From Eledone cirrhosa (Eukaryota): 64,000 nucleotides of DNA. The notes under the pieces are model-generated. The model was not told the DNA's origin. It worked only from the letters and a program-made list of their open reading frames with translations, and did no database searches. Shown piece after piece: positions 2,666 through 3,818 of this stretch (within the stretch, counting starts at the first letter, position 1; each line of letters starts with the position of its first letter). Made by a program: the position numbers and the translations under genes. The stretch spans positions 295,368,001 to 295,432,000 of the forward strand of contig OZ024743.1 in the NCBI GenBank assembly GCA_964016885.1, in the 5' to 3' direction.

Positions 2666-2793
2666 CTGACGTCACCAGCCCTGTTTTTCCACATGTGCGT
2701 TTTATTTGCATAATCACGCATGATGGTAAACTAGCCTGCTTTTAAATTCCCTTTTTGGCATATTAATCAGTGAGAATCTGGCTATCGTGTTGA

Positions 2794-2876
2794 GCTCTGC
2801 TGAGGATCGTATTCCAACCGTGCCCATCTCCACTGAAATTTTACGTGAAATAGTCTTTTGCAATACTATACAGAGC
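2794..2876 (+). ncRNA. Type I HHR, family D
   Basis: Stem I gctctg/cagagc; CTGAGGA; stem II base cgta/tacg; GAAA-tagt...acta-TA. Confidence 0.8.
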
Positions 2877-3427
2877 ATTTGTAGTTGTCCCAAATTGAAG
2901 GATGAGTATTTTAAACTTTATTTTATCATGAGTTAAGGCTCTATTGATTTTCCACTGGATTTCACTAAATTCTGTGGGTTAAATCTATATCCTGATTCTT
3001 TTTGAATTGAGTTTGAATTATTTTTCCCACATCTTACATTAACTATTTTCTCATGTTGACGCTATAGTCCCTTATATATTATGGAATACTGTTGGCTTCT
3101 TGCTACAATACTTTCTATACCTTTCATTTATATATTTATACTCGGATTTCTTTCCTAGAGTGCTTAAATATTTTGTGACTAATCCCCATATTTAAAAAAA
3201 AACCCGCGATAATATTGCTTTTTGCTGAACTCCTTATTGTAGAGTTTTGTTCGGAATGTTTTTGACTGTAGTTTCATGTAAACAAACATTCGTCTCATTC
3301 TGACGTCACCAGCCCTGTTTTTCCACATGTGCGTTTTATTTTCATAATCACGCATGATGGTAAACTAGCCTGCTTTTAAATTCCCTTTTTGGCATATTAA
3401 TCAGTGAGAATCTGGCTATCGTGTTAA

Positions 3428-3510
3428 GCTCTGCTGAGGATCGTATTCCAACCGTCCCCATCTCCACTGAAAGTTTACGGGAAGTAGTATTTTTCAAGAC
3501 TATACAGAGC
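3428..3510 (+). ncRNA. Type I HHR, family D, second unit (GAAA mutated to GAAG)
   Basis: Lies 634 bp from the first copy with the same stems. Confidence 0.65.
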
Positions 3511-3745
3511 ATTTGTAGTTGTCCCAAATTGAAGGATGAGTATTTTAAACTTTATTTTATCATGAGTTAAGGCTCTATTGATTTTTCCCTGGATTTCACT
3601 AAATTCTGTGGGATAAATCTATATCCTGATTCTTTTTGAATTGAGTTTGAATTATTTTATTTAACTATTTTCCCCTTTTGACGCTATAGTCACTTATATA
3701 TTATGGAATACTGTTGGCTTCTTCCTACAATCCTTTCTATACCTT

Positions 3746-3818
<73 letters not shown>

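What the first reader, a model, noticed from the sequence alone, without database searches (positions are those of the whole stretch)
2666..3750. Retrozyme candidate 1: 634-bp ORF-less tandem unit with one full HHR per monomer
Seen: two independent loci (2666-3750 +, 36020-37010 -), each 1.6-1.7 tandem units, HHR spacing 634 and 630 bp, ending near the same position before (TA)n, with no meaningful ORF. Stem III is a real helix (consensus tagtctt/aagacta), so it could cleave as a monomer. The stem II base covaries between loci (cgta/tacg vs cgaa/ttcg). Known: animal non-LTR retrozymes are tandem HHR repeats that yield monomeric linear and circular RNAs, usually with shorter units. Inference: a long-monomer cephalopod retrozyme, reverse-transcribed from a circle or multimer by PLE RT.
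Basis: partly seen in the sequence, partly recalled or inferred. Interest (0 to 1): 0.85.

Follow-up and report, generated by a model that had tools for sequence, protein, structure and literature searches.

The report
Hammerhead repeat spreading through TA microsatellites
A 634-base non-coding repeat carrying a hammerhead self-cutting RNA motif is scattered thousands of times in the TA microsatellites of this animal genome, and the pattern of its copies suggests it likely spreads as a small RNA circle copied by a Penelope-like retrotransposon's enzyme, although neither the cutting nor the RNA could be tested here.

Summary
Observation confirmed with corrections. The 634-bp unit and its type I hammerhead are real (1 of 5000 shuffles; two compensatory pair changes). 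Each window locus has one hammerhead with a core mutation, so these copies are decayed. The unit is a dispersed family: 4180 exact matches to a 3'-end 17-mer, 1437 to a hammerhead 17-mer. Copies share a fixed 3' end at an internal TATATAT about 260 nt downstream of the cut site, have variable 5' ends and lie in (TA)n. None of 162 arrays joins an ORF at a shared junction. Units within one insertion share one haplotype (13,631 locus-pattern versus 196 position-pattern and 185 control sites), and coverage does not drop across the cut site. This fits target-primed reverse transcription round a monomer circle, likely by a Penelope-like enzyme; Hydra-clade elements with intact ORFs abound, but no sequence link to a helper was shown. 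Non-LTR retrozymes are known, with units up to 972 bp, so this is a new member. Its value is genomic evidence on how they move. Cleavage, circular RNA and host taxon are untested.

The parts
2666..3751 (+). Locus 1: 1.7 head-to-tail units of the 634-bp monomer, 5'-truncated, fixed 3' end
2794..2876 (+). Type I hammerhead, copy 1: stem I 2794-2799/2871-2876, core from 2800, U.U at base of stem II, long loop II, stem III with one mismatch; predicted cut after 2870; core intact
3428..3510 (+). Type I hammerhead, copy 2: predicted cut after 3504; core mutated (GAAA to GAAG), likely inactive
2871..3504 (+). Predicted cut-to-cut monomer RNA, 634 nt; family majority 33% GC, circular fold z -2.8
3129..3135 (+). 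Internal TATATAT (monomer 460-466): the position where nearly all genomic copies end; inferred priming site for reverse transcription
3073..3081 (+). Second internal TA run (monomer 404-412): 5' boundary of the common 68-nt mini copies
3751..3818 (+). (TA)n target microsatellite at the 3' junction of locus 1
36020..37001 (-). Locus 2: 1.56 units of another subfamily, between (AT)n 37020-37109 and a TA-rich run 35956-36019
36855..36934 (-). Hammerhead, predicted cut after 36861; C3 changed to U
36225..36304 (-). Hammerhead, predicted cut after 36231; core intact, one stem III mismatch
5924..8323 (+). Context, not part of the unit: Penelope-like ORF with Hydra-clade motifs (RW, DKT, CxCX5C, YRDD, C-terminal GIY-YIG-like Y.G.T); candidate helper in trans, link not shown

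Best explanation
This is a dispersed, non-coding, hammerhead-bearing retroelement family whose copies sit in TA microsatellites with one fixed 3' end, and it likely spreads as a self-cut, re-ligated 634-nt RNA circle that a Penelope-like reverse transcriptase would copy into new sites. Shown: the unit, the ribozyme anatomy, copy number, target, fixed end, 5' truncation, read-through of the cut site and one haplotype per insertion. Inferred: a transcript of a two-hammerhead array is cut twice and the monomer is ligated (a host RtcB-type ligase by analogy with PMC7229834). The helper's endonuclease nicks (TA)n, and the nicked end primes at the internal TATATAT about 260 nt downstream of the cut. 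The enzyme then runs round the circle until it falls off, giving from 0.1 to about 3 units. The 5' end joins, often through TA microhomology. Only the rare copies long enough to hold two intact hammerheads could seed the next round.
For: Fixed 3' end at monomer 450-475 in 97 of 102 similarity-picked arrays and 54 of 60 pattern-picked loci. TA runs at the 3'/5' junction in 90/83 of 102 and 55/49 of 60. Exact 17-18-mer counts fall with distance from the 3' end: 4180, 1574, 1437, 560, 373, controls 0-2. The two patterns either side of the cut give about 2130 and 2110 after rough normalisation, and only 1 of 26 arrays starts at the cut. In 52 arrays, four-unit comparisons gave 13,631 locus-pattern sites, 196 position-pattern and 185 control. 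At 38 lineage-diagnostic sites units of an array disagree at 59 of 1396 (4.2%), the background rate, against 479 expected for random pairing. Rare variants lie in one unit 626 times and in both units 80 times, so the tandem dates from about the insertion. Lineage substitutions avoid paired and core hammerhead positions (0 of 44 against 33 of 309, P 0.007) while post-insertion mutation does not (4.6% against 4.2%). Core position 7 is the free one (T 110, G 104, C 33, A 4), and stem I has a G-C to A-T change (208 and 18 of 251). Inverted 5' copies directly abut the array in L056 and L179, a Penelope hallmark (PMC8557442). Hydra-clade elements, which target (TA)n per that paper, have many intact 821-codon frames here.
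Against: No RNA or cleavage evidence. Stem II is not in the predicted fold, and a rival hairpin would sequester part of the core (hammerhead fold -14.7 against -22.5 kcal/mol). The selection test left out core position 7 and the compensated stem II pair; with that pair counted it is 2 of 46 against 31 of 307, P 0.14. The covariation rests on about two events: pairs with a two-sided change are 5 against 3.9 in shuffles, 144 of 500. Among the 148 closest array pairs position-pattern sites are 20 against 10 control, and L061/L062 share two position-specific variants. One array (L024) is a haplotype mosaic. The two longest arrays were clearly expanded at DNA level. In the one purified Penelope system, hammerhead cleavage was dispensable and uncut RNA was the template (PMC11167929). 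Eight of nine Xenopus retrozymes did not cleave in vitro (bioRxiv 10.64898/2026.07.22.740005). No significant sequence link to any helper.
Confidence: 0.62

Rival explanations
1. Same family and same helper, but the template is an uncut linear multimeric transcript from a few homogeneous source arrays, primed internally at the TATATAT. The hammerhead would have another role, such as 5' processing or protein binding.
For: Internal initiation on uncut RNA was shown in vitro for a Poseidon element (PMC11167929). It explains read-through of the cut site equally well. Long arrays of 7 and about 15 units exist and show homogenising exchange. There is a slight position-pattern excess among close pairs, 20 against 10.
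Against: About 41 lineage variants are fixed in all units of the arrays that carry them, with no disagreement above background; a multimer lineage needs a separate homogenising step each time. Position-pattern sites equal the control overall (196 against 185). The long arrays examined have mostly decayed hammerheads.
Confidence: 0.22
2. The template is the cut linear monomer, and the reverse transcriptase jumps from its 5' end to a 3' end of the same molecule; no covalent circle is needed.
For: It gives one haplotype per array and needs an active hammerhead, as observed. 5 of 26 arrays have a 5' end at monomer 202-223.
Against: No loss of coverage across the cut and only 1 of 26 starts exactly at it. 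Jumps between molecules should give haplotype switches at the cut site; the one clear mosaic seen (L024) differs between monomer 312 and 452, not at the cut.
Confidence: 0.08
3. The unit is the pLTR or 3'UTR, or a recent internal deletion, of an autonomous Penelope-like element that was not sampled.
For: Xenopus retrozymes match pLTRs in 24 of 57 families (bioRxiv 10.64898/2026.07.22.740005). The 3' tail resembles the 5'UTR of the window's Hydra-clade element at P 0.015-0.07. Only 60 of 560 exact hammerhead-pattern hits were read with long flanks.
Against: 0 of 162 arrays continue into an ORF at a shared junction; upstream sequence is always more monomer or a target. No significant protein similarity in the unit (best E 0.18, wrong strand). 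No match in 30 loci of the Hydra-clade family apart from one 29-nt TA-rich end. An ancient origin from a pLTR stays open and is compatible with the best explanation.
Confidence: 0.05
4. Tandems arise at the DNA level (unequal exchange, satellite birth) from single inserted ends, as the 2026 preprint proposes for retrozymes.
For: It is true for the two longest arrays: identical non-adjacent units and a two-unit higher-order repeat.
Against: A copy shorter than one unit has no internal repeat to recombine. Arrays of 1.1-3 units start at arbitrary 5' positions and end at one 3' position. Rare variants are mostly private to one unit (626 against 80; 35 of 52 arrays share at most one).
Confidence: 0.03

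Closest known systems
Animal non-LTR retrozymes (Cervera and de la Pena 2020, PMC7229834; Li, Clavereau and Pollet 2026 preprint, 10.64898/2026.07.22.740005)
   Same: Non-coding tandem units, one type I hammerhead each, GC below 50%, stable predicted circle, co-occurrence with Penelope-like elements. The U.U at the base of stem II is also described for axolotl HHR_Amex2.
   Different: Unit of 634 bp, above the 150-450 bp of the 2020 paper but inside the 51-972 bp of the preprint. Stem III of 7-8 bp against the usual 1-2 bp (PMC4209133), and a loop II of about 30 nt that Rfam misses. Most copies are shorter than one unit. A fixed internal 3' end and (TA)n targeting were not described for retrozymes in the parts of those papers that I read. 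RNA not demonstrated here.
Penelope-like elements, Hydra clade (Craig et al. 2021, PMC8557442) and Poseidon PAc (Frangieh et al. 2024, PMC11167929)
   Same: Partial tandems, 5' truncation, occasional inverted 5' copy, (TA)n target, reverse transcription starting inside the RNA downstream of the hammerhead. The window's Hydra-type element also ends at an internal TATA run of its own 5'UTR.
   Different: No ORF. The start lies about 260 nt from the cut (about 40 nt in the window's element). It coincides with a target-like TA run, whereas PAc starts at a site without homology to the target. Hammerhead sequence differs from the other hammerhead families seen in the fetched loci.
Non-autonomous Chlamys elements such as MRC1 (PMC8557442, passages)
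   Same: Non-coding, multicopy head-to-tail insertions moved by Penelope-like machinery.
   Different: Those generally share 3'-end sequence with an autonomous family and lack canonical hammerheads; here the hammerhead is conserved and no parent was found.

Membership tests
Non-LTR retrozyme | Head-to-tail units with one type I hammerhead each | tested here: met
Non-LTR retrozyme | No protein-coding region | tested here: met
   longest stop-free frame 85 codons on the circle; no significant hit with five Penelope proteins
Non-LTR retrozyme | Dispersed multicopy family, GC below 50% | tested here: met
   33% GC
Non-LTR retrozyme | Unit length in the reported range | tested here: met
   634 bp: inside 51-972 bp (2026 preprint), above the 150-450 bp of PMC7229834
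Non-LTR retrozyme ('active' copy as defined in the 2026 preprint), family level | Two consecutive units with complete hammerheads | tested here: met
   23 of 37 arrays with two or more hammerheads have two intact cores
Non-LTR retrozyme ('active' copy), the two window loci | Two consecutive units with complete hammerheads | tested here: not met
   each window locus has one core mutation
Non-LTR retrozyme | Self-cleavage of the RNA | not testable with these tools
   indirect only: substitution pattern
Non-LTR retrozyme | Monomeric linear and circular RNA in vivo | not testable with these tools
   no run on record as RNA was offered
Non-LTR retrozyme | Target-site duplication longer than 4 bp when present | tested here: inconclusive
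   junctions lie in (TA)n, so a duplication cannot be read
Non-LTR retrozyme | No LTR, primer-binding site or polypurine tract | not tested
   no LTR-type organisation seen in any array; PBS and PPT were not searched
Autonomous Penelope-like element | RT plus GIY-YIG ORF within the repeated unit | tested here: not met
   0 of 162 arrays
Non-autonomous derivative of a given Penelope-like family | Sequence homology with the parent's pLTR or 3' end | tested here: inconclusive
   P 0.015-0.07 to one of five families tried, uncorrected; none
Penelope-type mobilisation (works like) | Fixed 3' end, variable 5' truncation, partial tandems, microsatellite target, occasional inverted 5' copy | tested here: met

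The most novel reading that the evidence does not exclude
The copies record the retrozyme life cycle that has so far been a model: a hammerhead-made monomer circle is the obligatory transposition intermediate, reverse-transcribed in trans by a TA-targeting Penelope enzyme from a priming site inside the circle, about 260 nt from the ribozyme cut, for more than one round. That would separate the ribozyme's job (making the circle) from the priming site, and give a natural rolling-circle target-primed insertion system that can be rebuilt in vitro.
Probability: 0.5. Interest if true: 0.68.

Novelty: new member of a known kind. Interest (0 to 1): 0.46.

Why it matters
How animal retrozymes reach new sites is open: one paper proposes reverse transcription of RNA circles (PMC7229834), a 2026 preprint proposes local DNA amplification of pLTR ends and says the mechanism is unresolved. 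This family is numerous, diverse and young enough (units about 4% apart) for its insertions to discriminate between these. They favour one monomer template per insertion and show where priming occurs. That yields a concrete bench system: a defined RNA, a defined target and abundant intact candidate helper ORFs. As a catalogue entry alone it is ordinary.

Tried and rejected
Pseudoknot between loop II and the leader of stem I: looked plausible by eye, but 719 and 434 of 2000 shuffles did as well; dropped. GIY-YIG remnant in the unit: E 0.18, antisense to the hammerhead; rejected. Head-to-head Penelope ORFs at the 5' junction of L115 and L109 as the helper: they belong to different families; not taken further. 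Tail homology with the window's Hydra-clade 5'UTR: marginal. A-to-G hotspot at monomer 141 as RNA editing or a position effect: 10 of 48 last units against 2 of 32 others, P 0.11; site excess not significant after correction, P about 0.19. Chimeric template switch with the upstream neighbour at 2177-2665: it is a separate family that normally ends about 20 or 85 nt further on in (TA)n; insertion into its TA tail with a short deletion is simpler. Rfam: no match. Pfam: only GIY-YIG in 1 of 5 window ORFs. Earlier findings: nothing by sequence or in this genome. Host taxon was not determined. No structure prediction, protein-database search or covariance model was run.

Full report
Observation. 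The sequence at 2666-3751 (+) holds 1.7 head-to-tail copies of a 634-bp unit, and 36020-37001 (-) holds 1.56 copies of a subfamily 78-89% alike. Each unit has a type I hammerhead: 6-bp stem I, CUGANGA, U.U plus a 4-bp stem II with a loop of about 30 nt, GAAA, a 7-8 bp stem III and AUA. Cut-to-cut spacings are 634 and 630. One of 5000 shuffled monomers gave such a motif. Rfam misses it. Each window locus has one core mutation, so neither is likely to release a monomer. Monomer positions below count from window 2670.

Family. The monomer search gave 3651 first-look candidates, of which 38 were scored. Exact patterns gave 4180 hits at monomer 411-427, 1574 at 223-239, 1437 at 172-188, 560 at 123-140 and 373 at 486-502, with reversed-pattern controls of 0-2. 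Dividing by the share of aligned units that match each pattern (0.61-0.74; sample biased to window-like subfamilies) gives roughly 6900, 2130, 2110, 900 and 510. So there are several thousand insertions, most without a whole ribozyme.

Anatomy of insertions. From 140 similarity-picked loci came 102 distinct arrays: 97 end at monomer 450-475, 90 have TA at the 3' junction and 83 at the 5' junction (this set is biased to long copies). A second set of 60 loci was taken from the contig-C1 part of the 100 listed (of 560) exact hammerhead-pattern hits, skipping those already held: 54 have the fixed end, 55 and 49 have TA junctions, median length is about 550 nt, 23 exceed one unit, and about 3 are long enough for two whole hammerheads. 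The fixed end coincides with an internal TATATAT at 460-466, about 260 nt downstream of the cut. Among 29 arrays picked by the 3' pattern, 10 are minis of about 60-70 nt that begin at a second internal TA run at 403-408. Inverted 5' copies abut the array in L056 and L179. No array in either set continues into an ORF at a junction shared between loci. Neighbouring Penelope ORFs are frequent but of different families, strands and distances, as expected when all target (TA)n. With 0 of 60, a parent making up 5% or more of hammerhead copies is unlikely; a rarer one is not excluded.

Is the ribozyme under selection? Among 251 distinct hammerhead copies the core positions are 90-99% conserved while position 7 is free; stem I has G-C 208 against A-T 18 next to the cut, and stem II has A-T 118, T-A 39, G-T 19, T-T 21. 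On 72 units chosen for an intact core, 90.9% of cells pair and 19 cells change on both sides against 6.1 in shuffles (0 of 500), but the number of pairs with such a change is not above shuffles (144 of 500); the signal rests on about two events. Variants fixed in source lineages fall on 0 of 44 core or paired positions against 33 of 309 elsewhere (P 0.007), while post-insertion changes hit both equally. Position 7 and the compensated pair were left out of the 44; counting the pair gives P 0.14. Folding supports stems I and III but not stem II, which competes with a hairpin covering part of the core. Activity may therefore be modest or protein-assisted, as reported for PAc (PMC11167929); that is inference.

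What was the template? A cut linear monomer primed at 460 would run off after about 260 nt. Coverage is level across the cut (about 2130 against 2110), and 1 of 26 arrays starts exactly there, 5 of 26 within 202-223. So the template was ligated, uncut or jumped. Units within an array are closer than units between arrays in 69 of 70 comparisons (4.1% against 7.4%). For 52 of the 102 arrays (those whose last two units overlap by 150 nt or more; five irregular arrays L005, L039, L059, L070, L129 left out), 1325 pairwise four-unit tests gave 13,631 sites grouping units by locus, 196 by position and 185 in the control pattern. At lineage-diagnostic sites the two units disagree at the background rate, 59 of 1396 (44 arrays). 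Rare variants are private to one unit 626 times and shared 80 times. Each insertion thus began as identical units of one haplotype, which is what a monomer circle gives. Against this: 20 position against 10 control sites among the 148 closest pairs, two shared position-specific variants in L061/L062, one mosaic array, and DNA-level expansion in the two longest arrays of 7 and about 15 units. Homogeneous linear multimers cannot be excluded.

Helper. The window ORF at 5924-8323 has RW, DKT and CxCX5C motifs and a C-terminal nuclease, which match the Hydra clade, described as inserting into (TA)n; Pfam gave no hit for it. Its N-terminus has 17,096 candidates, 150 scored, many with open frames of 821 codons. 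It too ends at an internal TATA run of its own 5'UTR. Sequence similarity to the 634-bp unit is marginal, and other Penelope families here also end in (TA)n, so the helper is not identified.

Literature seen. bioRxiv 10.64898/2026.07.22.740005: parts 1-3 of 5, abstract to discussion; supplements not available and may list families relevant to unit length. PMC7229834: parts 2-4 of 6, results and discussion; supplement not read. PMC11167929: parts 1-2 of 4, main text. PMC8557442: passages and section 11. PMC7761336 and PMC4209133: passages. Five searches listed no paper on this family or on insertion-site anatomy of animal retrozymes; the library is incomplete, and Repbase and Dfam were not available. 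Hammerhead numbering and the rule that position 7 is free are recalled knowledge.

Verdict. A real, new member of the animal non-LTR retrozymes, working like a non-autonomous Penelope-type element; the two window copies are decayed examples. Circle template 0.62, uncut multimer 0.22, jumping on a linear monomer 0.08, pLTR of an unsampled parent 0.05, DNA-level origin 0.03. Interest 0.46.

Noticed in passing
window 2177-2665 (+) and 20420-20985 (+): A second ORF-less hammerhead family (3361 first-look candidates): starts after (TG)n at a near-constant 5' point, has an internal repeat of about 196 bp, a hammerhead with U.U at the base of stem II near the 3' end, and two alternative 3' ends into (TA)n about 60-70 nt apart, like a Penelope tail. 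Unlike the 634-bp family it was not seen as tandem units in 20 loci.
   Followed up: partly
window 5641-9316 (+), with inverted copy 5492-5640: Near-complete Hydra-clade Penelope-like element with an 816-codon open frame, hammerheads in both pLTRs (5675, 9223) and two alternative 3' ends; many intact 821-codon copies in the genome.
   Followed up: partly
window 31961, 44532, 45284, 46998, 47488, 59748 and loci L001-L298: At least 15 further type I hammerhead families, several with long stem II or real stem III helices, in about 1.1 Mb of fetched DNA. The genome is very rich in hammerheads that Rfam does not detect.
   Followed up: no
monomer 404-471, e.g. L256, L263, L264, L283: 68-nt mini insertions spanning the two internal TA runs make up 10 of 29 copies sampled at the 3' end.
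   Followed up: partly
L285 (G000:C1:79095027-79099714) and L286/L287 (G000:C1 about 82128400-82138400): Arrays of 7.4 and about 15 units expanded at DNA level; the second has a two-unit higher-order repeat and a tail-to-tail inverted end.
   Followed up: partly
monomer 141 (window 2810): Recurrent A-to-G change in stem II in several subfamilies, more often in the last unit (10 of 48 against 2 of 32); not significant.
   Followed up: partly
monomer 137-198, 221-226 and 362-375: 5' truncation points seem to cluster inside the hammerhead and at the bases of a long predicted hairpin, perhaps reverse-transcriptase pauses; not tested statistically.
   Followed up: no
window 1443-1694, 3759-4250, 54409-54715, 57342-57555: An abundant palindromic pLTR-like repeat that often sits next to the 634-bp family at TA runs; in L109 it ends an internally deleted Penelope ORF.
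   Followed up: no
window about 23850-28600 (-) and 59917-60965 (-): Degraded Helitron-like Rep/helicase reading frames (identified by eye translations; not searched).
   Followed up: no
window 48831-50957 (-): Second Hydra-type ORF (RWK, DKT motifs), 708 codons, flanked by a 965-bp inverted repeat (47974-48928 and 50994-51958).
   Followed up: no
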